A DNA stretch of 64,000 nucleotides from Giardia intestinalis (Eukaryota). This document shows positions 1 to 17,715 of the stretch, piece after piece (the stretch's first letter is position 1; every line of letters starts with the position of its first letter). The stretch lies in NCBI GenBank assembly GCA_000002435.2, contig CM018790.1; one strand, 5' to 3'. The notes under the pieces were generated by a model. That model searched no databases. It saw only the letters and a program-made list of their open reading frames with translations, and was not told where the DNA came from. A program made the position numbers and the translations under genes.

Positions 1-2082
1 CGCCCGCATAACCGCGTTGCCATGTCCCTCTAATGTTTTGAAAAGAGAGAGCTTCGTGTCACCACTATTACCCCTCCCAGTTATCTGCACTAAACGAATA
101 CGCTTATCTCCGCAGGCAAGAGCGAGCAGCTTTTCATGCAGTGAGTACTCAACAGACCAAATGGTGCGCTTAGCAGCCTTTTGCATTTCTACGATAAATT
201 GAGGATGCGATAGATCATCAACGCCCCACAACTTCAAGCTAAGATCTGCTGAAACAGTGGCTAACTGCCGTTGATTCGGAGATAGAGCAATATGGTTGAT
301 AGAATCAAGGTGAGCCAAAACCGTTGCAGTAGGATGGAGCGTCCTGGGCGTAAGGACACTGTCATCACTTAGTTGAGCAAATGCAGATAAATCGTAGATT
401 CGTAAGCATTTATCCGCTGCACCTGTTGCGGCAAACCACCGTTTGCCCGCACATAGCACTACACAGTCTATATCAGAAGCAGCATCCTCTAGTATGGCTG
501 TGCATACCCACGGTGTAATTGCCAACTGAAGGGGGTAGGCCAGAACATTCTGTTCATTGCCAGCAGAGTGAGAGACCTGCAGTGAGGCATAAAGGTCAGT
601 GGTGCTGATATCTACCTCTAAAGGAAGGCGCTGCCAAAGCCGAACAGTCCCATCCTTTGATGCAGTGCAAAAGGCGCTCGACTCAGCAGATGCCCCAATG
701 CACGTCACGTAGTCGCTGTGGCCATAGCACGAATAGTTTTGCACAACAGTTACTGCCCCCGACTCTTCACTGCTCTCGAGGTAACGAATGACACGGACCT
801 GATTGGAACTAGTTCCTATAGCCAGCTCGTTGCTTGAAACCTTCTTAATGTCAAGCACTTCCCCGCTATCAGAGCAGATGGTAGAGACGACCAGCATGCG
901 AAAACGTGGAAGCTGACTGTACTCTGAAATGGAAAGGGGGTCTGGTAACTGCTTACCTGGGGGACAGATGTATTCCATGGTTGTAGCATCAAAGAGGAGA
1001 ATAAGTAGATCCGACGTCGTTGATAGAAGAAAGTGGTGCACGGCAGCATCGGATGGTCTGCTCGAACCCACCGAATAAGGAATCTTGTAGGAAAAGCTGC
1101 AGATGCCGACATAGCTGTTATGCTTACGGCTCCCCGGAGGGTCGGAAACGAAGTCCTCGGCAAACGGACGGCCCAAGTACTTTGAACAGTAGTGGTGATT
1201 GGTACTCATAAGATCTTTGCTGTAGTTGAGATCCATTCCTGTCGAGGCATAGTGATTGACGTAGTTCTCTGTGGTCTTTGTGTTGAAGACCTCAGACAGC
1301 ACAAATCGCAACATGTCACCATCGCTTGTAGAAGGGCCGACAAGAGCATCTCCGCAGACGACCATATCAACAAACGTGCTGTGAATGTTGACAATGCGCT
1401 TCTGAATAAGTGATCCTGCAGCTATTTGTGTAATAACTAGGACCTTGTCTTCACCGGACGAAATTAGGTAGTCATCCAGCAAGGTAAATGCAAAAATGGT
1501 GCTTAGATGTGCAGTAATTTTCCCAATGCATTGCTTTGAATGCAACTCGTGGACGAGTAGCTCAGAGCGTGATAGAGTAATGAGATACAAGTATTGATTT
1601 GGGGACTCCATGTCATAGAGAAACATGGACTTAACACACAGTGTTGAAAAATCTCTGAAGCAGTGAGTGTCGTAGAGACCATCGTAGTTACACACACGAA
1701 CGCTTTTATCCGCAGATGTAGTGGCAAAAAGTGACCCGGTTGCGTCGAAGACTATGCAGGTTATTACAGCCTGGTGACTGGATTTACGGGTCCGGAGGAC
1801 CAAACCCTTTTCCAGGTCGACAACATAAATGACTCCAGATTTGCTCGCAACTACGGCCTCATCCCTCGTGGGGTGTATTACCATGGCAGTGAGCATATCC
1901 CCCTCGTCGCTAACTGAGATGGAGGCATCGTAGCGGCCATGTGGTACGGTCAGGAGGGACAGACGATTGTCGTAAAAACAGACTAATCTAGCCCCATCCT
2001 TCGTTGGTAGAACGGGACCACCTGTATAGAACTTTTCTAACGATAGTACTTGGTTAAAGCTCGTGCGAAGATGCCATGCCAT
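1..2082 (-). CDS. WD40-repeat protein, 5' portion only (C-terminus lies beyond the window start). The ORF track missed it because the stop codon is outside the window
   Basis: I translated the reverse strand by hand. There is a single open frame from an ATG at 2082 to position 1 (about 690 codons, no stop), beginning MAWHLRTSFNQVLSLEKFYTGGPVLP. It has repeated WD-like motifs (SADKSVRVCNYD, ASKDGTVRLWQ, VSADLSLKLWG, ACGDKRIRLVQI). The minus-strand sequence just upstream of the ATG is AT-rich (gtatttttaagg). Confidence 0.6.
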   Translation of the reverse strand, partial: MAWHLRTSFNQVLSLEKFYTGGPVLPTKDGARLVCFYDNRLSLLTVPHGRYDASISVSDEGDMLTAMVIHPTRDEAVVASKSGVIYVVDLEKGLVLRTRKSSHQAVITCIVFDATGSLFATTSADKSVRVCNYDGLYDTHCFRDFSTLCVKSMFLYDMESPNQYLYLITLSRSELLVHELHSKQCIGKITAHLSTIFAFTLLDDYLISSGEDKVLVITQIAAGSLIQKRIVNIHSTFVDMVVCGDALVGPSTSDGDMLRFVLSEVFNTKTTENYVNHYASTGMDLNYSKDLMSTNHHYCSKYLGRPFAEDFVSDPPGSRKHNSYVGICSFSYKIPYSVGSSRPSDAAVHHFLLSTTSDLLILLFDATTMEYICPPGKQLPDPLSISEYSQLPRFRMLVVSTICSDSGEVLDIKKVSSNELAIGTSSNQVRVIRYLESSEESGAVTVVQNYSCYGHSDYVTCIGASAESSAFCTASKDGTVRLWQRLPLEVDISTTDLYASLQVSHSAGNEQNVLAYPLQLAITPWVCTAILEDAASDIDCVVLCAGKRWFAATGAADKCLRIYDLSAFAQLSDDSVLTPRTLHPTATVLAHLDSINHIALSPNQRQLATVSADLSLKLWGVDDLSHPQFIVEMQKAAKRTIWSVEYSLHEKLLALACGDKRIRLVQITGRGNSGDTKLSLFKTLEGHGNAVMRA

Positions 2083-2114
2083 CAAACCTTAAAAATACAA
2101 TTATTTCTTTTTTA
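2083..2114. promoter_or_regulatory. Shared AT-rich bidirectional initiator region between divergent genes
   Basis: The sequence is taaaaatacaattatttcttttttaATG. It sits between the minus-strand ATG at 2082 and the plus-strand ATG at 2115. Giardia promoters are short AT-rich elements abutting the start codon. Confidence 0.45.
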
Positions 2115-3095
2115 ATGCCCGCTACACTCCATGTTGTCACGCCTGGCAAGCTTCCTTTGGGGTCTGTAGCACGCGCAGCCTATGGAATTCGTCGCAGCCC
2201 CATTTATGAAGTCGTAGTTGCGGATAGCCTTGATTACCTCCTTGAGTCTAATTCGACTGCCGAGCAGGTAGACGCCCGAGGGCTACTTTGTCGAGCGGCC
2301 ATAGATTCTCTTACTAAGGTCACTGATGGTCAGCATGTGCGATGCCTATCTGAGCTCCTTCTGCCCTGTACCAGTTGCGATCTTTTATGGCCGGTAACCT
2401 TTGAAGTGTCGCGGCTGATGACGCTTGAGCATGCTTCCGCCGTTTTTGACAAGAAGGTAAAGAACCTCCTGGCCTCGGAAACGCTTCTGCCATGCATTAT
2501 CTCCGCTCTGGCAAAGACCCACCAACGCTATCCTATCCGGGTCTGTGTCAGCGAATACCCTACCTTGGATGGCTTTCTGAATGCTCCTACAAAGCCATGT
2601 CTCCTTCCAACGGGGCAATTGTTTAGGACAACTCGGGGGAGGATAGTTAGCAAAACACTAACACCCCTTCCATATCTTAGACAGAATCCCGTGACAGAAG
2701 TGGACAAGGAGCACTCAACCATATACTGCACAGATACACCGGCAGAGATAGCAAAGAAGATCGCAAAAGCTTATTGCCAGCCCACAGACATAGAGAACAA
2801 CCCTCTTTTGGCATACCTAGAGGAGATTGTATTCCCGTATAGCAAACTAGTCACAGGGAAACCTATACACATAAATGCCGTAGTTTATAATGATATGGAA
2901 GAAGTCCGAAGAGCGTTCCGTGAGGATAAGATCACGCCCCAGTGTCTGAAGAAGGTTATGGCAGAGAAATTAGGGGAGATCGTCTCGCGTATCCAGGGCT
3001 TCCCACAGTATGCTGAGGCTGAGGCACTACTGAAGACCGTGCTCGATAAGGAGAAGCAGGAAAAGAAGAGTAAGAAAGACAAGAAGCAAAAGTGA
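2115..3095 (+). CDS. Hypothetical protein with a lysine-rich C-terminal tail (KEKQEKKSKKDKKQK)
   Basis: The ORF track gives 2076-3095. The first ATG (2076) would overlap the divergent WD40 gene start by 7 nt. The second ATG (2115, MPATLHV...) lies directly after the AT-rich initiator, so I prefer it. I recognised no domain. Confidence 0.45.
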   Translation: MPATLHVVTPGKLPLGSVARAAYGIRRSPIYEVVVADSLDYLLESNSTAEQVDARGLLCRAAIDSLTKVTDGQHVRCLSELLLPCTSCDLLWPVTFEVSRLMTLEHASAVFDKKVKNLLASETLLPCIISALAKTHQRYPIRVCVSEYPTLDGFLNAPTKPCLLPTGQLFRTTRGRIVSKTLTPLPYLRQNPVTEVDKEHSTIYCTDTPAEIAKKIAKAYCQPTDIENNPLLAYLEEIVFPYSKLVTGKPIHINAVVYNDMEEVRRAFREDKITPQCLKKVMAEKLGEIVSRIQGFPQYAEAEALLKTVLDKEKQEKKSKKDKKQK

Positions 3096-4592: not shown

Positions 4593-4877
4593 TGCTGTGC
4601 TGCCAGATTTACCTGCGGGTATGGTCTAGCAATCTTGTGGGTAAATTGTCGCTTAATTCCTAGCCAATCCGGAGACGACTGTTGGTCATTGATAACATAA
4701 CAAGAGGGTCCTCTCCAGTGATACATCCAGGGCCCGGTACATTTCTCTTCCGTTTCATGGGCGTGTGCTCTGTCTGGATGTGCACGTCAGCCTACCTAGG
4801 ATTCAACTTACTTGCCCATCTGCGTCGTCCACCAGTGATTTCTCTCCTTGGTCTACCGCTCTGATGGTGGAGGGTCT
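4593..4877 (+). repeat. Copy A of a diverged dispersed repeat (about 72% identical to 10064-10358). It is the leading part of a roughly 950 bp ORF-free block, 4528-5495
   Basis: I aligned the two copies by eye. Shared blocks include ccggagacgactgttggtcattgataacataac versus ccggagacaaaggttggttgtggatgatataac, and cgtcgtccaccagtgatttctctccttggtct versus catcgtccaccagtggcgcctctccttggtct. No reading frame is conserved between the copies. Confidence 0.5.
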
Positions 4878-5495: not shown

Positions 5496-7633
5496 TTACT
5501 CGGACAGGAGCTGGCAAGCCGACATTGTTGAAACAGAGTAGATCTCGTTTGGGAGGATGCCTACTATCTCCATGCGATCCTTCTTCTTAGCGATATTGAG
5601 GGCAGTGGTACCGGGCGAGTGACCATGGCAGCTGCAGGTTGTCTTCAGATCTTTCTCGTTTTCCTTAAGAAGTCTTGCACACTCCACGGTGTTACTATAT
5701 GCCGCACTCATAAGGGCGATCTCCCTTGGTCGTTTGCATGCCGCCTTCCTCCTTCATTAGGAGCCTGACGCACTCTGGATGATCATTGCACACCGTCCAT
5801 GTGAGGACAGTCTGATGCTCGTTGTTCCTTATGCCAGTCTCCTGCTCGAGTAGCTCTACGATTCCTTCGTGCCCTCGTGCTGCTGCATACATGAGCTCCG
5901 TCCACCCTGAGATACTGCTCTCATACTCCATCAAAAGCTCAACGTGCCCAATATAGTCCACCAGGGGGTCATTGGAACGGTCGCACCGTGCCGCGAATAC
6001 GAGAGCGGCCCAACCGCCTACTTTCTCTCCCTTTTCGTGCTCTGCTAGCAGTTCTACTATTTCTGCGTATCCATTGCCGCAGCCATCATCAGAGCTGTTC
6101 CTTTGCGCATGTACCATCCGCTTCTTGTGACCTCTTTGTATGTTTTCCTCCCCCTCTGGATGGGTAAGAGTGCTTTTACAGCCCCCGCGTCGTTTCTATT
6201 GACAGCTCGCATGAGCGCCGTGACGCCGTTCTCATCGGTTGGGTCGATGGCCTCCACCACGGTTCCATGTCCTGCCTCTGCCGCAATCACCAAGGCCGTC
6301 TTGCCTTCGCTGCCGATCCGGTCCTTCTCATATGGGACCAGAAGGGAGGCAGCTCTTGCATAGTCCTCCTCTGTGGCGATCATCAGGTAGTCCAGCCATT
6401 CTTGTCCTGGAGACCGTTCTCCTCCCCAACAAGCAACTCGACGGGACTGATGCGCCCCTGCTCGTCGCGCTGACCAACACCGAGTCTTTCTTCAAGCAGC
6501 ATCCAGACGGTCTCCGTGCTATTCGTATGCGCGGCACGCATCAGCCCGGGCAACAAAAAGAGGCTGGACTGAGGGTCAGTCGTGTTCATCCTGTCATCGA
6601 ACTGTGCAAGCTTATTCTCCAGTGCCTTAATCATAGCTAGATGTTCCTTGCACTGATCTTCAAGTGCGTCGATCTAGTGGATTTAGTCTTAACATCCTCT
6701 TCCAGCAGCGCGATCCTGGCGTTAGCGCCATTCAGCGCAGCCTCCAAGGATCTGCACCTGTACCTCAGCATCACGCACTGACCCCCCAGCTCACTAACTG
6801 GGATGTCGAATGTAGCGAGCGTCTCGTGCAGCTCCCTGGCCGTCGGCCTCCTTCCAGGATCCAGCACGAATATCCCCTCCAGAACATTCTGCATGAAGCC
6901 ATCAGTGACACCGCTCAGGTCCGGCCTCCATCCATCAACGAAGACCTCTGCTGGCTCCTTGCCCCCCAAGAAGTTTGGTCTCCTCAGAGTAGTAAGTTCA
7001 TAAATGATGACCCCGAGGCTCCACACGTCGGAAGCATGGCTGGTCTCATTACGGAGGAGAATCTCGGGGGCCATGTATACTGCCGTGCCTGCAATGGTGC
7101 TCCCGCATCTCAGGGCGTCCTTACAGAGGCCGAAGTCGGCGATGATGAAGTGTTCACCATCTGCGCTGACGAGGACGTTCGCAAGCTTGAGGTCGCGGTG
7201 GACGAGGCCCTTGTAGGGGCGACCGTCGGCACCCACTCCGCTGAGGCCGTGGAGGTAGGCGAGGGCGGCGGCGACCTGCTTCATGACAGAGAGGATCACA
7301 GCGATAGGGACGGGGATCTTCCTTCGTTTGTGCTCGGTGAGGAGGCGCTCAAGGGTCTTGTCGTGCCGGTCCGTGACGACGTAGATGAGGCCCTCGTCTT
7401 CAATCACTTGATGATACTTGAGGACCCGGGTGAAAGATGTTAAGAAGGGCGGCCAGCCTACGCTTAATAGCATCCACACCGTGCTGATCCAGACCGTCGA
7501 GCCGGATCTCCTTCACAGTGAGGTGGGGGCATCCCTTGGGAGAGTAGATAACACTGAAGGCCCCCGCTGAGCACGGGGATGCCACCAGCGCCCATCGGCT
7601 CTGCAAAGCCGCTAACTGCACTGTTACTAGCAA
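5496..7633 (-). pseudogene. NEK-family protein kinase with C-terminal ankyrin repeats, broken by at least 5 frameshifts
   Basis: Six consecutive minus-strand ORF fragments (7400-7633, 6637-7479, 6383-6634, 6057-6383, 5695-6117, 5496-5711) lie in frames 1,0,1,2,0,2. The kinase N-lobe (GAFSVIY...VKEIRL...HPG) shifts frame into subdomains V-XI (YVVTD...HRDLKLANVLV...DFGLC...YMAPE). Ankyrin-like repeats follow (TALVIAAEAGHGTVVEAI, TELMYAAARGHEGIVELL). Confidence 0.55.
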
Positions 7634-8263
7634 CTCCTAGGGCGCCCTCTGCGGTGGCTGGGACAGGGAGTGGAGTCAACAGCCATCGCTAATCTTAACG
7701 CAATCCGGAGCCACCCTTTGGAGTGGCCTTGGCTACTGCCCGAGCAAGGCGCCCAGTGTGAGCTGCCGATGACAGGCCAAGGAGGGCATACTCGCGGCTC
7801 GTATGGTCCTAAGCAGGTCGGATTCTGGAGGCTAACACGGAGCGCCCCGACAAAACACGCCGACTGGGGACCACACTGAGCTCTGGATGCATCAATAGAG
7901 AGAAGCTCTTAGTATGTTATCCACAACCAGACCTCGTCTCCGGACGGCTGGGAAGTGAGCGCGGCTTACCCGTGGGACCTCTGAGCGCACCTGCAGGCGG
8001 CCCCAGCGATACAGTGACGGCAATGTACAGGAGTGCACCCCGAGCAATCACTCCACAAGAGAGGTGCGATTTGAGTCTGGCCCTCACTGGTCCTGTTCCT
8101 ATGGAAGTCAGAGAGAACTACACTATCAGCTGGCCTCCAGTGAGCGTGCTCCTATCTTGTCCTTCTTCAGTCCAACTGGTTAAGGGAGCAAGAGCAGCTG
8201 TCTCTCACTGCTCGCGGCAACACATCAGCCTGACAGAAGAGCAGTGGCATACTAACCCGGCTA

Positions 8264-10027
8264 ATGTTGGTAGGATTTCTCCTAGTTTGTGCAACAGTGC
8301 TGGCAAAGGACAGCGGGAAGGACACATGCTTCCCGGGATACACCCTCAACCCCACCACGAAGAAGTGCGACAGGAACTCCGCGCCGTGCGAGGTCGAGGG
8401 CTGTGATGTCTGCGAGGAAAGCAACCCCCAGCAGTGCAAGACGTGCGGCTCAGGCTACACCCTCAACCCCACCACGAAGAAGTGCGACAGGAACTCCGCG
8501 CCGTGCGAGGTCGAGGGCTGTGATGTCTGCGAGGAAAGCAACCCCCAGCAGTGCAAGACGTGCGGCTCAGGCTACACCCTCAACCCCACCACGAAGAAGT
8601 GCGACAGGAACTCCGCGCCGTGCGAGGTCGAGGGCTGTGATGTCTGCGAGGAAAGCAACCCCCAGCAGTGCAAGACGTGCGGCTCAGGCTACACCCTCAA
8701 CCCCACCACGAAGAAGTGCGACAGGAACTCCGCGCCGTGCGAGGTCGAGGGCTGTGATGTCTGCGAGGAAAGCAACCCCCAGCAGTGCAAGACGTGCGGC
8801 TCAGGCTACACCCTCAACCCCACCACGAAGAAGTGCGACAGGAACTCCGCGCCGTGCGAGGTCGAGGGCTGTGATGTCTGCGAGGAAAGCAACCCCCAGC
8901 AGTGCAAGACGTGCGGCTCAGGCTACACCCTCAACCCCACCACGAAGAAGTGCGACAGGAACTCCGCGCCGTGCGAGGTCGAGGGCTGTGATGTCTGCGA
9001 GGAAAGCAACCCCCAGCAGTGCAAGACGTGCGGCTCAGGCTACACCCTCAACCCCACCACGAAGAAGTGCGACAGGAACTCCGCGCCGTGCGATACTCCC
9101 AACTGCAAGGCCTGCGACAACCCCAAAACAGACAACGAAATCTGCACTGAATGTAATGATAACAATTATCTCACTCCAACCAGTCAGTGCGTATCTGACT
9201 GCACGACCCTCAAGGGCTACTACGGAGACGATAGTGGCAAAAAGACATGCAAGAGGTGCAACGATGCGTGCGCAGAGTGTAAGGGTGAGGGTGCTGATAA
9301 GTGTACGGCCTGCCCTGCTGGGAAGATGCTTCAGTATACAGATGCTGATACTCCTGCCAATGGGGGCACGTGCATGAACCAGTGCAGCGTGAGCCCTGCA
9401 AACGATGGATGCGCAGAGTGTGGGGCCCAAATAGGAGGAACTGCATATTGCTCAAAGTGCAAGAACACTCAACAGGCACCACTGGATGGCAACTGTGCGG
9501 CCAATACGCGAACACGATTTTGCACTACGGTGAGTAATGGAGCATGCACTCAATGTGAAAATAACTACTTCCTCAAAGATGGCGGTTGCTATCAAACAAA
9601 TAGACAGCCTGGTAAACAAGTGTGCACCCAAGCTAACGGAGGAAAGTGTCAGACATGTGCCAATGGCTTAGCAGCAACTGATGGCAACTGTGCAGAATGT
9701 CATCCTACTTGTGCTACGTGCTCGACTGCAGGTACGGCTGACAAGTGTAAGACCTGTGCCACTGGGTATTACAAGGAAAACGGTAGCGATACCACTACTG
9801 GGTTATGCAAGAAGTGCTCAGAGAAGATCTCTGGATGCAAGCAATGTGTGTCATCATCTGGCAGTTCAGTCATATGTTTAGAATCAGAAGTAGGCACTGG
9901 TGGAAGCGTCAACAAGAGCGGCCTCTCCACGGGGGCCATCGCGGGGATCTCCGTTGCTGTGATTGTTGTCGTCGGAGGGCTTGTCGGATTCCTTTGCTGG
10001 TGGTTCCTCTGCCGCGGGAAGGCGTAG
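8264..10027 (+). CDS. vsp: Variant-specific surface protein (VSP)
   Basis: It has a signal peptide (MLVGFLLVCATVLA) and is Cys-rich, with many CXXC motifs and a GGCY motif. The C-terminus has a transmembrane helix and the canonical tail GFLCWWFLCRGKA-stop. It contains internal tandem repeats. Confidence 0.85.
   Translation: MLVGFLLVCATVLAKDSGKDTCFPGYTLNPTTKKCDRNSAPCEVEGCDVCEESNPQQCKTCGSGYTLNPTTKKCDRNSAPCEVEGCDVCEESNPQQCKTCGSGYTLNPTTKKCDRNSAPCEVEGCDVCEESNPQQCKTCGSGYTLNPTTKKCDRNSAPCEVEGCDVCEESNPQQCKTCGSGYTLNPTTKKCDRNSAPCEVEGCDVCEESNPQQCKTCGSGYTLNPTTKKCDRNSAPCEVEGCDVCEESNPQQCKTCGSGYTLNPTTKKCDRNSAPCDTPNCKACDNPKTDNEICTECNDNNYLTPTSQCVSDCTTLKGYYGDDSGKKTCKRCNDACAECKGEGADKCTACPAGKMLQYTDADTPANGGTCMNQCSVSPANDGCAECGAQIGGTAYCSKCKNTQQAPLDGNCAANTRTRFCTTVSNGACTQCENNYFLKDGGCYQTNRQPGKQVCTQANGGKCQTCANGLAATDGNCAECHPTCATCSTAGTADKCKTCATGYYKENGSDTTTGLCKKCSEKISGCKQCVSSSGSSVICLESEVGTGGSVNKSGLSTGAIAGISVAVIVVVGGLVGFLCWWFLCRGKA
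8342..9091 (+). repeat. Tandem repeat of a 117-bp unit, about 6.4 copies, apparently identical, inside the VSP coding sequence. Each unit encodes 39 aa (TLNPTTKKCDRNSAPCEVEGCDVCEESNPQQCKTCGSGY)
   Basis: I read the period directly from the sequence and from the protein repeats. The seventh copy is truncated after ...RNSAPC. Confidence 0.85.
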
Positions 10028-10063
10028 ACTTAGGTAGTAAACGCATTACTTTATGTAGCTTAT

Positions 10064-10358
10064 GTGGATGTGCTACCGGGTGCTTGTAGGTACGATCCAG
10101 AAATCTCACGAATAAATTCTCGCTCCTTTGGCCGTGTCCGGAGACAAAGGTTGGTTGTGGATGATATAACGAGGAGCTCCTCTCTTTTAGTATATCTAAA
10201 ACCTGGCACCTTCCCTGGTCGCTCCGCAGGGGTGTGCTCAGCTGAGTGTGCACACCCGGGAATGCTTGCTCAGTCGGCCTGGGATTCCGCTTACTCACCA
10301 TGTACATCGTCCACCAGTGGCGCCTCTCCTTGGTCTTCCTTCACGGTGGGTGAAGCCC
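10064..10358 (+). repeat. Copy B of the diverged dispersed repeat (same orientation as copy A). It is the leading part of a roughly 950 bp ORF-poor block, 10028-10977
   Basis: See copy A. Copy B carries a roughly 15-nt insertion relative to A. The 3' part (10360-10760) is GC-rich with no credible ORF. Confidence 0.5.
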
Positions 10359-10977: not shown

Positions 10978-13900
10978 TTAAATATCAGAACTGCCTGTGC
11001 TACACTGCCCAATTGATGTATTGCTACTTGTGACGCCAGAGGCTTTATTGACATGCATTGTGGATGGAACAGTGGATTGTATTGCTAACAGATTTGCCAA
11101 GGGAGCCGATTGGGCTATATCGGAAGCACTATGAGTGGAAGACGTATCTGAAATACTTGAAGGAGCCTTTGCTTCAACCACGTCTGTAGTTATCTTAATA
11201 GTTGATGTCTTTTTCCGTGAGTCTACATGTGATGGTGTAGACGGTGAGCTGGTATTTGATTCCGCTATGGGGTCGTCTAAATTCGCTGGTCTCTGGTCAG
11301 TACTATTGCCAAGAAAGCACAACTTTGGTATTATGGGGTGTGCACTCATTGTTTTCGACTGAAGATCTGTATCATCGTCGTCTTGGTTAACTAAGCGAAT
11401 GCGTGTGATTGGTGTCTTGATACCTGCGGACTCTTTCGGAAGGGACTGCAAATTTAGTGCAGGAATTACTAGAGGGCTCCGTGGAGAAGTGGGGCGCAGC
11501 TGTGGCTTAGCATCGCTACCCGCTGGAGTCCCTGTCGAAGTGCTACTTTCTCCTTTCACAGTGAAATCATTCCATCGCGTCAGTTCGTACTGGATTGATG
11601 CATTTATCCAATGCAGTGGAAGATTGATGCGCCCTATCAAGAGAGTCCTAAGTCTCCGCAAGAAGAGACCCCTGGGGAAGCTGGATTCCTGTTTGCTAAG
11701 AACACACGGGTCCCATGAAATATGGCGCCCATACCGGTAAAGAAAACAATAGTGTGCGGTTAGTAGTTGAATGCGGCACAGATTGAAGCCTTGCATATCC
11801 ACCTCAGGCCGTGTACACTTGCAACAACAGCACATATATTGTGAGGTCCCATGACCGATATCTGGAAAGATAGTAGGCGGGGGGTATGAGTATCTGTACT
11901 CTGGAGTAGAGCCGACTAACGACTCTTGCATGCTGTTAATAGGCTCGTCTGCAGAAAAGTGGAGCGTAGAAAGAGTAGGAGGACGGGCCTGTTGCTGTTG
12001 ATTGGATGGCGTAATTGTGCTGTTATTAGTAACAATACTTGTTGTGCGTAGCTTGCTTAAGGATCCTGTTGTACGAGTTTGGCGTTTATTACGCATTAGT
12101 ATGATATCTGAAGCATTCTGCTGGTCATCTTCATTGTAGGGCTCATAGTAGAAGCTGTTATTCCTACTCACTATACTATGTTCTCCGTGAGGTTCATCAT
12201 CGACATTGTCGTCATCGATAGTTGTGCAAATCGAGTCATCAAAGATGCTTGTAAGACCTCCTACATCCTTTAGCTCTTTGCGGATCTGAGACGCCACAAT
12301 ACAATCCTCCAAAGAGCGTGTAAACATCCTATCCCGATATAAAAAGCGTTGCTCAGCCCCCATATCCTTGAAAATCTCTGGATTCCCTGTTTCAGTCGAG
12401 CTTTCTCGTTCCTTAAGACTGGTCTGCTTCTGGTGTCCTTCTATTCCTGCGAGTATTTTGCCTATAGCTGTTCTATTGTATAACTTGTTCCGCTGGATAT
12501 ACTTGTCATTCAATGCGGAATCAAGGGGCTTCTCCGGTTGCTCATCAACTACGTCTTGCTCTCTTTCAGGCTTAATACTACCAGAGAGATCAACGCTCTT
12601 CTGAGACATAGCGCTACTTATTGAGGCTTCTTTTGCATCCAGTTCTCGTAGTACCGGCGAGCTCGGCTCTGGCCTGGCATGAAATTGTTGTTGTTGTTGT
12701 TGTTGTTGCTGTTGCTGTTGAGGCGATTGATTTGGTGTGGACTTAGTATTCCGCGTGGGAGAAAGCACGCAGCTTTGTGATGTAGCTAGAGTGGAGAACT
12801 GGAAGGCGTTTCCCGGTAAACTACGTGCAGACGGTCTCTGTGAAAACGCCTTTGACTTCACCTGATTATGATCTGCAAGTGGAGCAGAGGTCATACTGAT
12901 ATGTTCAATTTCAGAAATTTCTTGAATATCCAGTTTGATCCCTGAAAGCGTCTTTGTGGACAGAGGAGGGTTGGAGTACAAGGGGTTAGAGAGCGCCTTA
13001 ATCGGAACCGATGCAGACGATTTGTGTTCTGAGAACCCAGCAGTTAATTGATTGAACGGGGAGCTTGCGCGACTGCTTTCTAATGACTCAGTTAAAGAAG
13101 AGCTAGCACTTTGCGCACTAATGTCAGAGTGCTGAAGCATATGCGGTTGACTTTGCACTTCTGCCACGGGAAAAAGAGGCCCAGGCTGGAAACTATTAAT
13201 ATCATCTTTTAGATAGTATTCTACGTCTCTCTCATTGCCCAGGGTCTCTGAGAAAGACCTGGTAAGCATCTGATACCATAGTCGCGTTCCCAATTCATAA
13301 AAGGACGATCCTACCGTTAGCGTAGTTAATCCATCAATTACGTTTTGCAACTGCATTCGCTTAAGCTTTGCAATGATGCTTCTAAGCGTGGGGCACTTTC
13401 TGATGGTGTTGAGGGTCTCCTGATCATCCAAATCGAAAAACGAGTTGGCATTATGGGCGTTTCCGTGAAGCAGACGAAGAGAAAACTCGACAGCATTCTG
13501 GGAGCTCCCAATATAAACATCCAAAGGGGATATCTTTTCAGACCAATCAAAATTATGAATATGGAGAATATTTTTCTCATCGACAAGGGCGTGAAGTACA
13601 TTTTCAAAGGAGTCGGACAGTATGGAGTCAAGGGTGTTCGACTCAGGTCCCTGTGAGCCATTCCCAGCCACACCATACTCTTGTCTCATAGAGGCATAAG
13701 CGTCGAGAAGAGGATGCTCAAAGCGGGCCGTGCTTTTGCTATCCAGTGAGGACACCCGCAAGTCGGGAGCTGAGAGAGAAACCTTGAGCGGTGGCGCAGA
13801 AGAGATTGGAGCCTGTTCGTGGGTTAGACTGCGCTGATATTTCTTGAGAAGCTTCTTGATGTAGTTGAAAATATGCTTACGACGGGGATAGAGGGATGCA

Positions 13901-16900
13901 GCCGACGACGCTTCAGCGACGAATTTCGAAGAATTAATAATCGACAGCAGTTGCTTGCTCCTTGTTCGTTCATTCAAAACAGGCGACGGAAGCCTGTATA
14001 GTAAGCTATCGGGGCTTCCATCATATAGTGATTCTGAGAGTACCCGTTCCAACAACGTTTTGACATGACGTGCCTCGTCCATTAGAGATACCGAGTTGCG
14101 CCTCACATTATCAGTGTGGAAAGTCGGCGAGGCTTTGGAGACCGTTTTCCGGTGTTCAAATATCCGGTCAACCATACAAATACCTGTGGATTTTCTGACC
14201 ACGTGTGCCTGTGCAATCTCAGGCACAGTAATATATACCGACTTATTAAACTCTGTGTCCGACAATAAATCAGATTGCCCTTCAGAGTCGAGACTAAAGG
14301 ACATGTGCCTGTTCAGAACATCACTGCTACTCATTGGACTCTTCGCTCTATTCTTTGAGCACAGCTCTGTTTTTGTTTTAAGCTTTTCTGAAGCGATGAT
14401 GTGGGCATGAGTATTAATCTTCTCCCCACTGGTAAAGTCATCTATGCGGTAACCTGTATGATTGAGCACATCATGTTTGGACTTTCTAAATAGCTTAGAA
14501 GAGAAGAGGGCCAGTGTGTTAGCCAGCAGAGGAATATCGGTGCACGTATAGATCATACTGTTGTCAATGGTGCTTGCAGTGATACACTTGCTATTATTAG
14601 CCAGCACGTATTGTCTGCGGCGCATAATTATCAGCATGTGAAACCGTCGGAGCTGATGGTAGTCTCTCTTCGCTTCTCTCCACAACGCACGGATGTTCCC
14701 AGACTTACTGGTCGCTACGGAGTGTGCGTGAGACAAAACAGAGTGCATCGTCGTTACACTGATGTCCGAAGTCCCCTTTGCCGGAATGCTCATTGGCAGC
14801 TTAAATTGTCTTGGATTGACAGCAGGATGATACATGCATTCAAACAGCGTGTATCTGTGACTTGGAATCTCGTCTAGAAGACCACACAGCAAGTCGGTAA
14901 TCAGCAATCCAAAGGTTCCACAGAGAGCAAAGGCTTCTTGGCTATACCTGTACAGAGGGGTTCGTCTGACCAAGCCTGTGAGTGAATGAAAAAGCATAAC
15001 TCCTGTTTGCCAAGCGTCTGCATGTACAGCTGAAAACAGGGAATGAGCCCTGTGTGGGTCGTGGTCACTACACGTCTGCATAACAGCGCGAGACTCGGGA
15101 GAAAGAATAGTCGGAGTCCCTGTGGAACTGCTAATAAAGTAGGTATTCCTTGGCATAGCCGGAAACGTGTTGATCTGTCTAATAGATGAGAGGTAGGATT
15201 GTAGTGCCTGCCCAACCTTGTTAGTCTCTATCGTCTCCTGAATGAAGTCTTCAATGCGGCTGATAGTGGAGAGAAGCGCAGCGTCTCGTTGTGACAGTGA
15301 GCTATTTGAAGTCTTAATTGAGCAATCAATGGCTGGCACCAACAAGGAGTTGTCAGCAGGGAAATCTGCGTCTAGATGGGTATGACCTTTGCATGTTTTC
15401 TCTGCAAGTCCAGTTCCATCGGGTGTTAAGTCAGTCAATTTCAAGCTCAGCGCGTCAGTGTGAAAAGCTTTTTGGAAGGTTGCCGCATGCGAATCATCGT
15501 CGAGCAAAGGAATGTCTACACAAGGCTCTAAGTTGCCTAAAAAGGCGTCCTTTTGGTCATCCAAGGAAAGAACCAGAGTAAGGCAAGAAGAGTGAAGCGC
15601 TCTTGTCACAGAACTTTTGTCACTAGTACGTGCAATATGAGCCGTATCAATGCTTGCATTGGGCTTTGCAGCAGTAACTGTTGCTTGTCGTAAGCTGAGA
15701 GTAGTATCCTTGCATGAAGAGTTGTTTGGTTTAATACTTATTTTGTCAAAAATAGGCTCCGACATATCAAATGATTGTGTCTCGTAGATTCCAGACATCC
15801 TGCATATCCCTATACTTCCATTAAGGGTGTCCATATCTATTTGTGAGGGCTTCAAAGACTGCTGTGAGTCGTCCAGCTTAGCTGCCTCAGTGCATATGGC
15901 AGTGCCCTCTTTGACTAAGATGTCAGCATTGAAGCTAAAGGCCGACGAAACTAAGTCGGCCTCTCTCCTAGATGAAGCATGCACACAGTCAGAATCCATA
16001 GAGGCTACTACATCATGACCCAACAAAAGGCTGCCTTCGTCTTCTTGTGGTAAAATACGTTGCCGCACAAGGTCATTAAAAAAGCATGTAAAGCTCTTGC
16101 GAAGAAGAGAAAGGTGTCTATTGTATATGCTTTTTAGTGTCTCTAGGACGGTCTGTGCTGTTGGTAGTCTGACCCCCTCTTCCTCGAGGATGATTGCAGT
16201 ATCAAAGTCACTGATCTTTGCACGGTAGGGTGCAGTATCCGAGTCCCCTAACAGATAGTACGTTATATCTGATGACTCTTTTAGTGATTGAAGTCTGTAC
16301 CGAGATCCGCTTGGAAGCAGCAAAGGAGAAAGAACGTTGTCATTGAGGCGAGAGGATATACGTGTAGGCCCTCTGGGCATAACAGTGGGCGGATTGGCGG
16401 CGGTTGGTAGTGCATTTTGTAAAGGAAGCTTCAAAGAAAGTGGGGGTATATTGTACCTATCTTTAGGGTCCCTCCTCAGCGTATTCTCAATTGGGTTGCT
16501 ATGAGATGGATCACTACTCAGAGCAGTACTTGCCAAGGGAGTGCTGGACTGAGATTGTACGGTCCCAACTGCAAAGTCACCTATTGTGCCTGAGGTGCTA
16601 GTAAAGAACAGGTCGGTCGTTCTGGGGACCTTCCGTGGAAGTAGCTTACTTGCAGGAGGTATCGGTGTCTTGAAATTGCTTTGAAGATCGGTGGTGATGA
16701 TGATGTTCTCTAATTTGATATCTTGGTGTACAACGTTGCAGAAGTGCATGTAGCAGAGAGCATCGACAACCTGATAGAAGAGTATCATGATCTTCTTTAG
16801 ATCTGCTGTGCGTACAACCTCCTGGAGGGTCCCCCCGTCACAGTACTCTATTATGAAAACGAAGTTATCATCATAGTTCATGGTGCACCGACCTGTGTTC

Positions 16901-17715
16901 TGATAGCGTGGAGTCAGGTTGGAGTCCAATTGGGAGCTACGGGCCGAGTATTGTTTGAGCTTACTGCCAGCCGATGGCATACGTCTATGGGCAAGCTCCG
17001 ATCCCTGGGTCAATGGTTTAGCAATACCATTAAGAGCCATCGGATTGTGCAAAAGAGGCTGCAAATCGGAGACAAGCTCTGGTTGTAGCATCCCCTTGGC
17101 GTTTGAGAGTTGATCAATAATAGATTGATACTTGCAGGGAAGCTCACATATCAGGTTGACCTGCTGTGCAATAGACAGGATTGTCTGAACCCACGGGGGC
17201 AAGCTTCCCGGTGTTACGGCGTACTGACCGGCAAACGTAGAACCAGGAATTAGGGACTCCATAGAGTTCTCCACAGAGCAAACATCAGCGTAAATAGGGT
17301 GATGCATCACCTCAATGAGGTTAAGAATAGATGGGTGTGCGGTGGTCAAGAAATCCATGACCCGGGAGCAATTCCAAAGGAATTTGTCCGCAGATTCCTG
17401 GGTTAAGAGCTTACGCCTCAGAGAAGTTCGGTTGATCATGCGCATGGCTGCTTTTTGCTCTGTAAGCGGGTTATGGCATAGTCTCACGTTGGCATAGGCA
17501 CCCCGACCGATTGTTCTCTGTATGATCCACTCGTTAATGCACACGTTCCCCTGGGCTGTCGTTGTAACCCAGATCCGATCCTTGACTGGAACTCGAAGCA
17601 GTCCTGGCAGAAATGGAGCAGAGATGCCTGTCAAAAGGTGGAAGACGCCTGTCGCTGACTCTGACGTACTAGATGTGCTGTCAGTACTTGCATGGTTCAC
17701 TTCATGCAAGGCCAT
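10978..17715 (-). CDS. Giant (2245 aa) protein with a split, divergent protein-kinase-like domain near the N-terminus and a long low-complexity region containing polyQ
   Basis: It has a glycine-loop-like IGRGAYANV...AMRMI. About 200 aa later there is HFCNVVHQDIKLENIII (HRD-like catalytic loop) and GDFAVG (DFG-like). The Q13 tract is encoded by a (TTG/CTG)n run at 12685-12723 on the plus strand. Confidence 0.55.
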   Translation of the reverse strand: MALHEVNHASTDSTSSTSESATGVFHLLTGISAPFLPGLLRVPVKDRIWVTTTAQGNVCINEWIIQRTIGRGAYANVRLCHNPLTEQKAAMRMINRTSLRRKLLTQESADKFLWNCSRVMDFLTTAHPSILNLIEVMHHPIYADVCSVENSMESLIPGSTFAGQYAVTPGSLPPWVQTILSIAQQVNLICELPCKYQSIIDQLSNAKGMLQPELVSDLQPLLHNPMALNGIAKPLTQGSELAHRRMPSAGSKLKQYSARSSQLDSNLTPRYQNTGRCTMNYDDNFVFIIEYCDGGTLQEVVRTADLKKIMILFYQVVDALCYMHFCNVVHQDIKLENIIITTDLQSNFKTPIPPASKLLPRKVPRTTDLFFTSTSGTIGDFAVGTVQSQSSTPLASTALSSDPSHSNPIENTLRRDPKDRYNIPPLSLKLPLQNALPTAANPPTVMPRGPTRISSRLNDNVLSPLLLPSGSRYRLQSLKESSDITYYLLGDSDTAPYRAKISDFDTAIILEEEGVRLPTAQTVLETLKSIYNRHLSLLRKSFTCFFNDLVRQRILPQEDEGSLLLGHDVVASMDSDCVHASSRREADLVSSAFSFNADILVKEGTAICTEAAKLDDSQQSLKPSQIDMDTLNGSIGICRMSGIYETQSFDMSEPIFDKISIKPNNSSCKDTTLSLRQATVTAAKPNASIDTAHIARTSDKSSVTRALHSSCLTLVLSLDDQKDAFLGNLEPCVDIPLLDDDSHAATFQKAFHTDALSLKLTDLTPDGTGLAEKTCKGHTHLDADFPADNSLLVPAIDCSIKTSNSSLSQRDAALLSTISRIEDFIQETIETNKVGQALQSYLSSIRQINTFPAMPRNTYFISSSTGTPTILSPESRAVMQTCSDHDPHRAHSLFSAVHADAWQTGVMLFHSLTGLVRRTPLYRYSQEAFALCGTFGLLITDLLCGLLDEIPSHRYTLFECMYHPAVNPRQFKLPMSIPAKGTSDISVTTMHSVLSHAHSVATSKSGNIRALWREAKRDYHQLRRFHMLIIMRRRQYVLANNSKCITASTIDNSMIYTCTDIPLLANTLALFSSKLFRKSKHDVLNHTGYRIDDFTSGEKINTHAHIIASEKLKTKTELCSKNRAKSPMSSSDVLNRHMSFSLDSEGQSDLLSDTEFNKSVYITVPEIAQAHVVRKSTGICMVDRIFEHRKTVSKASPTFHTDNVRRNSVSLMDEARHVKTLLERVLSESLYDGSPDSLLYRLPSPVLNERTRSKQLLSIINSSKFVAEASSAASLYPRRKHIFNYIKKLLKKYQRSLTHEQAPISSAPPLKVSLSAPDLRVSSLDSKSTARFEHPLLDAYASMRQEYGVAGNGSQGPESNTLDSILSDSFENVLHALVDEKNILHIHNFDWSEKISPLDVYIGSSQNAVEFSLRLLHGNAHNANSFFDLDDQETLNTIRKCPTLRSIIAKLKRMQLQNVIDGLTTLTVGSSFYELGTRLWYQMLTRSFSETLGNERDVEYYLKDDINSFQPGPLFPVAEVQSQPHMLQHSDISAQSASSSLTESLESSRASSPFNQLTAGFSEHKSSASVPIKALSNPLYSNPPLSTKTLSGIKLDIQEISEIEHISMTSAPLADHNQVKSKAFSQRPSARSLPGNAFQFSTLATSQSCVLSPTRNTKSTPNQSPQQQQQQQQQQQQFHARPEPSSPVLRELDAKEASISSAMSQKSVDLSGSIKPEREQDVVDEQPEKPLDSALNDKYIQRNKLYNRTAIGKILAGIEGHQKQTSLKERESSTETGNPEIFKDMGAEQRFLYRDRMFTRSLEDCIVASQIRKELKDVGGLTSIFDDSICTTIDDDNVDDEPHGEHSIVSRNNSFYYEPYNEDDQQNASDIILMRNKRQTRTTGSLSKLRTTSIVTNNSTITPSNQQQQARPPTLSTLHFSADEPINSMQESLVGSTPEYRYSYPPPTIFPDIGHGTSQYMCCCCKCTRPEVDMQGFNLCRIQLLTAHYCFLYRYGRHISWDPCVLSKQESSFPRGLFLRRLRTLLIGRINLPLHWINASIQYELTRWNDFTVKGESSTSTGTPAGSDAKPQLRPTSPRSPLVIPALNLQSLPKESAGIKTPITRIRLVNQDDDDTDLQSKTMSAHPIIPKLCFLGNSTDQRPANLDDPIAESNTSSPSTPSHVDSRKKTSTIKITTDVVEAKAPSSISDTSSTHSASDIAQSAPLANLLAIQSTVPSTMHVNKASGVTSSNTSIGQCSTGSSDI

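What the first reader, a model, noticed from the sequence alone, without database searches (positions are those of the whole stretch)
8342..9091. Perfect 117-bp x 6.4 tandem array inside the VSP ectodomain
Each 39-aa unit carries two CXXC motifs plus CDR/CKT cysteines. The copies look base-perfect, which implies very recent expansion, contraction or concerted evolution. Repeat-number variation would change the antigen's length without changing its C-terminal anchor. The -1 frame of the array is also open (an Arg/Pro/Ser-rich 362-aa ORF), which is a repeat artefact.
Basis: seen in the sequence. Interest (0 to 1): 0.55.

Follow-up and report, generated by a model that had tools for sequence, protein, structure and literature searches.

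The report
Known Giardia VSP tandem-repeat gene
The perfect 117-base repeat is real, but it lies in an already catalogued surface-antigen gene of the gut parasite Giardia (vsp101, GL50803_115047), so it is an ordinary, published feature of this antigen family.

Summary
Window 8339-9093 holds 6.45 head-to-tail copies of a 117-bp unit with no mismatch. The array is in frame inside a 587-aa ORF (8264-10027, + strand). That ORF has the sequence features of a Giardia variant-specific surface protein (VSP).

The protein is identical to KAE8302259.1, XP_001706212.1 and UniProt A8BLZ5 of Giardia intestinalis WB clone C6. Adam et al. 2010 list it as vsp101 / GL50803_115047: "TR117", 6 repeats, 587 aa, 79 Cys, 26 CXXC. 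All these values match the ORF here. The accession series and neighbour numbering place these records in the Sanger (2007) and PacBio (2020) assemblies, which argues against an assembly artefact.

Each 39-aa unit has six cysteines and is one cysteine module of the VSP ectodomain. The array ends in phase with the next, non-repeated module.

At the same chromosomal position, isolate DH (assemblage A2) carries a different, shorter VSP. It has its own near-perfect 117-bp x 2.9 array, and its unit is only 58% identical in DNA to the WB unit. This fits lineage-specific amplification or homogenisation.

Tandem-repeat VSPs, their varying copy number and their immunodominance are established literature. 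Verdict: already known, low interest. One side observation may be worth a follow-up: the arrays are markedly richer in G/C at third codon positions than the rest of their genes.

The parts
8262..8268 (+). Initiator-like element TAATGTT spanning the ATG (8264)
   Evidence: Read directly from the sequence. Adam et al. 2010, Additional file 1, lists INR = TAATGTT for vsp101. The element is conserved in the DH syntenic and paralogous loci.
8264..10027 (+). Complete VSP gene vsp101 / GL50803_115047 (587 aa plus stop)
   Evidence: ORF listing. Pfam VSP E = 5.4e-87. Exact identity to KAE8302259.1 / XP_001706212.1 / A8BLZ5. Matches the table row for vsp101: 587 aa, 79 Cys, 13.5% Cys, 26 CXXC, TR117 x 6.
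8264..8338 (+). 75-bp leader: signal peptide MLVGFLLVCATVLA plus 11 residues before the array
   Evidence: The first 20 residues are identical to those of the repeat-bearing cysteine-rich protein O97448 (P0004) and near-identical to P0001 and P0003. AlphaFold2 predicts a helix at residues 2-16. SignalP was not run.
8339..9093 (+). Tandem array, 117 bp x 6.45, base-perfect, encoding 39-aa six-cysteine modules (aa 26-276)
   Evidence: GC 63% and GC3 0.90, against GC3 0.47 for the non-repeat ectodomain. The predicted secondary structure repeats every 39 residues.
9094..9934 (+). Non-repeated cysteine-rich ectodomain; it starts with a module (C-DTPNCKACDNPKTDNEICTEC...) in phase with the repeat unit
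   Evidence: Motif scan C-x4-C-x2-C-x(7-9)-C-x2-C at aa 42, 81..., 237 and then 276. This part is 53-77% identical to other WB, DH and P15 VSPs in a mosaic pattern.
9935..10024 (+). Transmembrane segment (aa 558-582) and cytoplasmic CRGKA (10010-10024)
   Evidence: These columns are nearly invariant in the 35-sequence alignment.
10036..10042 (+). AGTAAAC, matching the Giardia polyadenylation signal consensus AGTPuAAPy
   Evidence: Sequence read. The consensus itself is from my own knowledge of Giardia gene structure, not from a tool.
8289..9377 (+). 362-aa alternative-frame ORF, a by-product of the repeat and not a gene
   Evidence: ORF; the unit has no stop in this frame; no Pfam family.

Best explanation
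This is the known gene vsp101 (GL50803_115047) of Giardia intestinalis WB, assemblage A1. It belongs to the variant-specific surface protein family, of which the parasite displays one member at a time.

The 117-bp array encodes 6.45 identical copies of one 39-residue, six-cysteine, furin-/EGF-like module. These copies sit directly after the signal peptide, so in the model they form the membrane-distal half of the ectodomain. The non-repeated stalk, the transmembrane helix and the CRGKA tail are unaffected by the array.

Inferred steps:
- The array arose by in-frame tandem amplification of a single VSP module, through unequal recombination or replication slippage between adjacent homologous modules.
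- It arose, or was last homogenised, after the A1/A2 split.
- As shown for other repeat-bearing VSPs, gain or loss of units would change protein size, and the repeated epitope would dominate the antibody response when this VSP is the one expressed.

Shown here: the array, its perfection, its reading frame, the gene's identity, the same copy number in two WB accession records, and a different array at the same locus in isolate DH.

Not shown here: the recombination mechanism, immunodominance, and copy-number variation at this locus.
For: - Array.
- VSP features.
- Identity: the protein exactly equals KAE8302259.1, XP_001706212.1 and A8BLZ5. The flanking proteins exactly equal WB KAE8302258, KAE8302261, KAE8302262, KAE8302263 and KAE8302264.
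- Published catalogue row: vsp101, gene 115047, TR117, 6 repeats, 587 aa, 79 Cys, 26 CXXC (PMC2996952).
- Independent assemblies exist: Sanger 11x ARACHNE and PacBio 200x HGAP3 de novo (PMC7000408). Assigning XP_ to the first and KAE to the second rests on the accession series and neighbour numbering.
- Literature: the paper reports 30 repeat-bearing vsp genes with units of 105-516 bp and 2 to more than 20 copies, allelic copy-number variation in vspA6 and vspC5, and immunodominance of the vspA6 repeat. A 2022 preprint lists 36 of 136 WB VSPs with tandem repeats.
- Module phase: the C-x4-C-x2-C... motif recurs every 39 aa and continues into the first non-repeat module.
- Structure: the AlphaFold2 model has mean pLDDT 81 with beta-hairpin elements recurring every 39 residues. 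The nearest solved folds are R-spondin furin-like repeats (TM 0.58-0.65 on the target) and EGF arrays of LRP2.
- Recency: 0 substitutions are observed in 755 bp, against 5.5-12 expected since the WB/DH split.
- DH syntenic locus: 117 bp x 2.9, 99% matches, unit 58% nt and 33% aa identical to the WB unit. That unit occurs once in the WB protein P0003, so one-copy and multi-copy states of the same module both exist.
Against: - No copy-number difference was seen at this locus; the two WB accession records agree.
- I could not retrieve raw long reads, or the locus from other A1 long-read assemblies.
- The DH array may be under-counted, because it comes from a draft assembly and the literature warns that arrays can be condensed.
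- Surface expression of this VSP was not examined. It appears only as a probe or gene in expression and yeast-display tables.
- The disulfide or metal-binding state of the modules is unknown, and there is no solved VSP structure.
Confidence: 0.95

Rival explanations
1. The array length is an assembly artefact: a collapse or expansion of a longer or shorter true array.
For: Adam et al. 2010 warn that repeat copy numbers in the 2007 assembly are approximate and may be condensed. Short-read assemblies of A1 isolates never cross this region; their contigs stop at window 4701/4919 and 10578/10614.
Against: The 587-aa product is identical under XP_001706212.1 and KAE8302259.1. By accession series these belong to the Sanger assembly and the de novo PacBio 200x assembly respectively. 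A 755-bp array is far shorter than PacBio reads. [quoted passage not shown]
Confidence: 0.03
2. The array is an old, orthologous structure kept uniform by continuous concerted evolution in both A1 and A2, rather than a recent independent amplification in each lineage.
For: WB and DH have arrays of exactly the same period (117 bp) with the same cysteine spacing at the same chromosomal position. Each array is internally homogeneous, yet they are 42% diverged from each other in DNA.
Against: The DH gene's N-terminal 83 residues, including its unit, are by eye about 90% identical to another WB gene (P0003) that carries the unit once. This points to replacement of the gene at this locus, or independent amplification of different modules. 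A third isolate (L015, ENA ERZ27317378) has yet another VSP C-terminal region at this position. The flanks immediately around the VSP are only 82-85% identical between WB and DH, against 98.5% in the neighbouring gene. That indicates turnover of the whole cassette.
Confidence: 0.15
3. The gene is a silent or decaying family member, and the array has no role in the antigen. The repeat is then neutral satellite-like DNA that happens to be in frame.
For: The upstream neighbour is a frameshifted NEK kinase/ankyrin pseudogene. The region is part of the variable, gene-poor VSP neighbourhood described in the literature. No protein-level evidence was found here.
Against: The ORF is intact for 587 codons, with leader, Inr, transmembrane segment, CRGKA and a poly(A) signal. 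The unit preserves the family's cysteine spacing exactly and is in phase with the next module. The 2020 re-annotation kept it as a VSP rather than a pseudo-VSP. A microarray study lists ORF 115047 as differentially regulated.
Confidence: 0.05

Closest known systems
vsp101 / GL50803_115047 (KAE8302259.1, XP_001706212.1, UniProt A8BLZ5) of Giardia intestinalis WB C6
   Same: Everything. The 587-aa sequence is identical. The published descriptors match: TR117, 6 repeats, 79 Cys, 13.5% Cys, 26 CXXC, TAATGTT.
   Different: Nothing; this is the same gene.
vspA6 / CRP170 (vsp67): 195-bp repeat, about 22-25 copies
   Same: Same architecture: a short leader, then in-frame perfect tandem repeats, then a non-repeated ectodomain and the conserved 3' end (Figure 1 legend of PMC2996952). 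Allelic copy-number variation and immunodominance of the repeat are documented for it.
   Different: The unit is 65 aa rather than 39 aa, the unit sequence is unrelated, and there are many more copies. Neither variation nor immunodominance has been shown for vsp101.
vspC5 (vsp90, 105 bp x about 25) and CRP136 (vsp130, 120 bp x 22)
   Same: Single-module-sized units (35-40 aa) with CXXC motifs that start soon after the leader.
   Different: In vspC5 the repeats run up to the conserved 3' region, whereas vsp101 keeps a non-repeated ectodomain of about 280 aa. The unit sequences differ; the paper states each gene's repeat is unique.
Cysteine-rich protein O97448 (P0004, 76-aa repeat x 4.2)
   Same: The first 20 residues are identical (MLVGFLLVCATVLAKDSGKD). 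The post-repeat stalk and tail are closely related, with 53% identity overall at 96% coverage. Both follow the plan: same leader, interchangeable repeat cassette, related stalk.
   Different: The repeat cassette is 76 aa (two modules) and unrelated in sequence.
DH (assemblage A2) VSP at the syntenic position (AHGT01000023.1, locus L014 19346-19966)
   Same: Same chromosomal position between the NEK gene and the 2245-aa gene. Same leader type, same 117-bp period and same cysteine spacing, with a near-perfect array.
   Different: 199 aa only, 2.9 copies. The unit is 58% nt and 33% aa identical to the WB unit, and the repeats run straight into the membrane anchor.
Furin-like cysteine-rich repeats (R-spondin Fu1-Fu2) and EGF-like arrays (LRP2)
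   Same: The predicted fold is a rod of small disulfide-rich beta-hairpin modules. Foldseek gives probability up to 0.99, target TM 0.58-0.65 and rmsd 3-4.6 A over about 105 residues.
   Different: Fold resemblance only, at 15-24% identity. There is no sequence-level PDB match. No membership is claimed.

Membership tests
Giardia variant-specific surface protein (VSP) | Pfam PF03302 match above the gathering threshold | tested here: met
   E = 5.4e-87, 292.7 bits against a cut-off of 31.4.
Giardia variant-specific surface protein (VSP) | C-terminal hydrophobic anchor followed by the invariant pentapeptide CRGKA | tested here: met
   aa 558-582 AIAGISVAVIVVVGGLVGFLCWWFL, then CRGKA at aa 583-587 and a stop codon.
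Giardia variant-specific surface protein (VSP) | Cysteine-rich ectodomain (about 11-14% Cys) with many CXXC motifs and a GGCY motif | tested here: met
   79 Cys (13.4%), 26 CXXC, GGCY at aa 440.
Giardia variant-specific surface protein (VSP) | N-terminal signal peptide | tested here: met
   The hydrophobic leader MLVGFLLVCATVLA is shared with other annotated VSPs. A helix is predicted at residues 2-16. No dedicated signal-peptide predictor was available.
Giardia variant-specific surface protein (VSP) | Initiator-like TAATGTT/CAATGTT at the start codon, and AGTPuAAPy shortly after the stop | tested here: met
   TAATGTT at 8262-8268 and AGTAAAC at 10036-10042. The INR column of the published table agrees.
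Giardia variant-specific surface protein (VSP) | Mutually exclusive surface expression with switching | not testable with these tools
   This needs clone-level expression data. Only microarray and yeast-display mentions of ORF 115047 were found.
Tandem-repeat-bearing VSP subclass (vspA6, vspC5, CRP136, CRP65 and others) | Leader of 66-99 bp followed by in-frame head-to-tail repeats of 105-516 bp, 2 to more than 20 copies | tested here: met
   75-bp leader, 117 bp x 6.45, in frame. Criteria are from PMC2996952. The gene is listed there as TR117.
Tandem-repeat-bearing VSP subclass (vspA6, vspC5, CRP136, CRP65 and others) | Copy number varies between alleles or isolates | tested here: inconclusive
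   The two WB accession records carry the same protein, hence the same copy number. Short-read contigs of other A1 isolates do not span the array. DH has a different gene at the locus.
Tandem-repeat-bearing VSP subclass (vspA6, vspC5, CRP136, CRP65 and others) | The repeat is the immunodominant epitope | not testable with these tools
   Reported for vspA6 only.

The most novel reading that the evidence does not exclude
Perfect VSP arrays may be hot spots of ongoing GC-biased gene conversion. In all five repeat-bearing VSP genes for which I had DNA (WB, DH x2, P15 x2), the array is an exact run and its GC3 is 0.71-0.90, against 0.47-0.62 in the non-repeat ectodomain of the four genes that have one (the DH syntenic gene has almost none). 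In addition, the same chromosomal slot in A1 and A2 holds different genes, each of which has separately amplified a 117-bp module. If this holds generally, array composition would record the recombination process that also reshuffles the antigen repertoire.
Probability: 0.25. Interest if true: 0.4.

Novelty: already known. Interest (0 to 1): 0.1.

Why it matters
For the scan, it matters mainly as a resolved item. The window is Giardia WB, on the chromosome-scale record of 1,539,535 bp. The flagged array is a published feature of an annotated antigen gene, and tandem-repeat VSPs have been studied since the 1990s for size variation and immunodominant epitopes.

The added value here is modest:
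- The copy number is the same under the two WB accessions.
- The unit corresponds to one structural cysteine module.
- The A2 isolate carries a different repeat-bearing VSP in the same slot.
- Arrays are compositionally distinct (GC3-rich) from the rest of their genes.

The last point could be tested genome-wide.

Tried and rejected
- **Protein searches that missed the exact record.** A homology search with the full ORF and with three repeat units did not return the identical public protein. Its 90% cluster is represented by a 167-aa fragment (P0174). I therefore first suspected the gene was unannotated; the exact-sequence look-up corrected this. The three-unit search found only one distant relative (P0172, 53% identity). 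Absence of the unit from other isolates cannot be concluded, because cluster representatives hide members and short-read assemblies break at the array.
- **Locus look-ups that failed.** The look-up of encoding contigs found no record for the VSP itself, P0001 or P0003. I could not read the WB chromosome records or locate the WB gene that carries the DH-type unit.
- **Structure searches.** The PDB sequence search gave no hit. Foldseek hits over the whole model are weak (TM on the query 0.05-0.18), so only the local furin-like/EGF-like resemblance is used.
- **Flanking inverted repeat.** I considered whether the arms 7913-7945 / 10136-10168 (33 nt, 82%) mark a mobile cassette. BLAST shows only weak dispersed similarity (75-79% over 53-84 nt). 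I left it as a side note.
- **Alternative-frame ORF.** The 362-aa ORF was rejected as a gene. It has no Pfam family. By hand calculation, roughly one frame in three would lack stops across a 39-codon unit of this GC content.
Full report
**1. The observation**

Tandem Repeats Finder reports one array in the region: 8339-9093, period 117, 6.5 copies, 100% matches, no indels, score 1510. A base-by-base comparison at offset 117 gives an unbroken identity run from 8339 to 8976. This defines an array of 755 bp, or 6.45 copies. All six complete units and the 53-bp partial unit are identical.

The array is in frame within the ORF 8264-10027 (+ strand, 587 aa). The unit translates as YTLNPTTKKCDRNSAPCEVEGCDVCEESNPQQCKTCGSG. 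Each unit has six cysteines: two CXXC motifs plus two single cysteines.

The 362-aa Arg/Pro/Ser-rich ORF exists at 8289-9377. It is displaced by +1 nt from the VSP frame. It is one of only two frames without stops across the array, and it has no Pfam match. It is a by-product of copying a GC-rich unit that lacks stops in that frame.

**2. What the gene is**

The ORF matches Pfam VSP (PF03302) at E = 5.4e-87, 292.7 bits against a cut-off of 31.4. Its other features all fit a VSP:
- a hydrophobic leader;
- 79 cysteines (13.4%), 26 CXXC motifs and one GGCY motif;
- a transmembrane stretch at aa 558-582, and CRGKA as the last five residues;
- the initiator-like TAATGTT over the start codon, and AGTAAAC eight bases after the stop.

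Proteins encoded on both sides of it are identical to those of Giardia intestinalis WB clone C6:
- KAE8302258 (BRF);
- KAE8302261 (putative Maebl);
- KAE8302262 (IFT46);
- KAE8302263 (hypothetical protein);
- KAE8302264 (RNase L inhibitor).

All lie on a record of 1,539,535 bp.

The VSP itself is identical over all 587 residues to KAE8302259.1, XP_001706212.1 and UniRef100_A8BLZ5, all named "VSP". My first homology search missed this record because its 90% cluster is represented by a 167-aa fragment.

**3. It is already catalogued**

Additional file 1 of Adam et al. 2010 (PMC2996952) has this row: vsp101, clade II, gene 115047, "TR117", 117 nt per repeat, 6 repeats, chromosome 2, complete, INR TAATGTT, 587 aa, 61.5 kDa, 79 Cys, 13.5% Cys, 26 CXXC. 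Every value that can be checked agrees with the ORF here.

The same paper makes these points:
- 30 complete vsp genes in WB carry tandem repeats, with units of 105-516 bp and 2 to more than 20 copies.
- The repeat sequence is unique to each gene.
- Copy numbers in that assembly are approximate.
- Allelic copy-number variation is documented for vspA6 and vspC5.
- The vspA6 repeat is immunodominant.

A 2022 preprint re-counts 36 repeat-bearing VSPs among 136 in the new WB assembly. GL50803_115047 also appears as a VSP in a microarray study and in a yeast-display screen.

**4. Is the copy number real?**

The WB genome has been assembled twice by independent methods. The first used Sanger reads at 11x with ARACHNE. 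The second used PacBio RS II at 200x, assembled de novo with HGAP3 (PMC7000408).

The older-series accession (XP_001706212.1) and the newer-series accession (KAE8302259.1) carry the identical 587-aa sequence. The KAE numbering also runs in order with the neighbouring genes of this window. By accession series and that numbering I take XP_ to come from the first assembly and KAE from the second. On that reading, both assemblies contain 6.45 units.

A 755-bp array is well within the length of a PacBio read. I do not know which assembly the window was taken from, but the argument does not depend on it.

Short-read assemblies cannot address the question. Contigs from A1 isolates are 100% identical to the window but stop at 4701/4919 on one side and 10578/10614 on the other.

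**5. Anatomy of the unit**

The motif C-x4-C-x2-C-x7-C-x2-C recurs every 39 residues, at aa 42, 81, 120, 159, 198 and 237. It is followed at aa 276 by the first non-repeated module, CDTPNCKACDNPKTDNEICTEC, in the same phase. The array thus ends exactly where a homologous module begins. This is what unequal exchange between neighbouring modules would produce.

An AlphaFold2 model built on a 35-sequence alignment has mean pLDDT 81. Its beta-strand elements repeat with a 39-residue period, and confidence dips at unit borders.

Foldseek against the PDB finds local resemblance to R-spondin furin-like repeats, with probability up to 0.99, target TM 0.58-0.65 and rmsd 3-4.6 A over about 105 residues. 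It also finds EGF-like arrays of LRP2. No solved structure matches by sequence.

I conclude that one unit equals one small cystine-rich module, and that the array lengthens the membrane-distal end of a rod of such modules. The fold assignment rests on a prediction.

**6. Relatives show a modular plan**

O97448 (P0004) shares the first 20 residues with vsp101 and has a related stalk, but it carries a 76-aa repeat x 4.2. P0001 has a near-identical leader and a 37-aa repeat x 3. P0003 has the leader and no repeat.

Their periods are 35-40 aa, or 62-83 aa, or about 100 aa. These periods roughly fit whole numbers of modules.

**7. The same locus in another lineage**

In isolate DH (assemblage A2; AHGT01000023.1, locus L014) the neighbouring 2245-aa gene is 98.5% identical to WB, with no gaps. 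The DNA around the VSP is only 82-85% identical.

Between the conserved leader and the conserved anchor, DH has 435 bp where WB has 1602 bp. The DH gene encodes 199 aa. It contains its own 117-bp array of 2.9 copies with 99% matches. Its unit is CTVPNCKRCAQGKPAECEECNSNFNLDSNTKQCNPAPAA. That unit has the same cysteine spacing as the WB unit but is only 58% (nt) and 33% (aa) identical to it.

The DH unit and the DH N-terminus are by eye about 90% identical to WB protein P0003, which carries the unit once. A third isolate (L015, an ENA assembly) has yet another VSP C-terminal region at this position.

This agrees with published statements that A1 and A2 VSP repertoires have largely evolved independently (PMC4570179). 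Within A1, by contrast, VSPs are conserved in position (PMC11169602).

**8. How recent?**

WB and DH differ at 1.45% of all sites and at 3.2% of four-fold degenerate sites in the neighbouring gene. Suppose the 6.45 units had existed since that split without homogenisation. Then 5.5 substitutions (overall rate) to 12 substitutions (four-fold rate) would be expected in 755 bp. None is seen (P = 0.004 to 6e-6).

The amplification, or the last homogenisation, therefore post-dates the A1/A2 split. Finer dating is not possible, because A1 isolates are almost identical to each other.

**9. Mechanism, with its status**

Shown here:
- the gene is an intact VSP;
- the array is perfect and in frame;
- the two WB accession records carry the same copy number;
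- one unit equals one cysteine-motif module in sequence;
- a different array occupies the same slot in A2.

Inferred from the family literature: unequal recombination or slippage changes copy number in steps of 39 residues without touching the anchor, and the repeated epitope dominates the antibody response when this VSP is the one displayed. Neither was tested for this gene.

**10. Side observations**

- **GC3 of arrays.** The array has GC3 = 0.90 (35 of 39 codons end in G or C). The non-repeat ectodomain has 0.47, and neighbouring housekeeping genes have 0.46-0.60. The binomial P is 2e-8. Arrays in the other repeat-bearing VSP genes examined also have high GC3: 0.85 (DH syntenic gene, which has almost no non-repeat ectodomain), 0.83 against 0.62, 0.83 against 0.52, and 0.71 against 0.54. 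GC-biased gene conversion in the arrays is one possible reading, but an N-terminal composition gradient has not been excluded.
- **NEK-VSP pair.** The VSP is paired head-to-head with a frameshifted NEK-kinase/ankyrin pseudogene at 5496-7633 on the minus strand. The pair is bracketed by weak direct repeats of about 200 bp. A paralogous NEK-VSP pair exists elsewhere in DH.
- **Upstream region.** About 400 bp upstream of the VSP start is conserved among the three loci compared.

**11. Verdict**

The feature is a published one in an annotated gene of a well-studied antigen family. Novelty: already known. Interest: low.

Noticed in passing
window 8339-9093 versus 9094-9907; loci L014, L018, L019, L020: Third-codon-position GC is much higher in the tandem array (0.90) than in the rest of the ectodomain (0.47). 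The other four repeat-bearing VSP genes examined also have GC3-rich arrays: DH syntenic 0.85 (almost no non-repeat ectodomain to compare), then 0.83 against 0.62, 0.83 against 0.52, and 0.71 against 0.54. All five arrays are base-perfect runs. Possibly GC-biased gene conversion. An N-terminal composition gradient has not been excluded.
   Followed up: partly
L014 19346-19966 (DH, assemblage A2, syntenic with window 8264-10027); L015 19340-20023: The same chromosomal slot holds a different VSP in other assemblage A isolates. DH has a 199-aa VSP with its own 117-bp x 2.9 array. An ENA assembly has a third, unrelated VSP C-terminal half. The flanking 2245-aa gene is 98.5% identical, whereas the immediate VSP flanks are only 82-85% identical.
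   Followed up: yes
window 5496-7633 (- strand): A NEK-type protein kinase followed by ankyrin repeats is broken over at least six ORFs in different frames, so it is a frameshifted pseudogene. It is oriented head-to-head with the VSP. An intact-looking counterpart (411-aa kinase plus ankyrin ORFs) sits next to a VSP in DH locus L013, 85% identical in DNA.
   Followed up: partly
window 4650-4857, 7880-7961, 10136-10339: Weak dispersed repeats (75-79% identity over 53-84 nt) bracket the NEK-VSP pair as direct copies, with an inverted partial copy between the two genes. Short-read contigs of A1 isolates end close by, at 4701/4919 and 10578/10614. Whether they mark the borders of a duplicated cassette is unresolved.
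   Followed up: partly
window 7883-8307; L014 19902-20328; L013 2749-3175: About 400 bp upstream of the VSP start codon, including TAATGTT and the first 14 codons, is conserved at 82-85% among the WB locus, the DH syntenic locus and a DH paralogous locus. The ectodomains that follow are unrelated. Gene callers place a 97-aa ORF there in DH (144 aa in WB); it is probably non-coding.
   Followed up: partly
window 12685-12720 (- strand gene 10978-17715): A (TTG)12 microsatellite, CAA/CAG on the coding strand, encodes a polyglutamine run inside the 2245-aa kinase-like protein. That exact 2245-aa protein sequence was not found in the protein collection, although A1 short-read contigs are 100% identical in DNA there.
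   Followed up: no
window 2076-3095 (+): The 339-aa ORF equals the 2007 model XP_001706221.1. The 2020 annotation uses a 326-aa model (KAE8302257.1, putative nucleotidyl transferase / tyrosine-tRNA ligase), so the start codon was revised between annotations.
   Followed up: no
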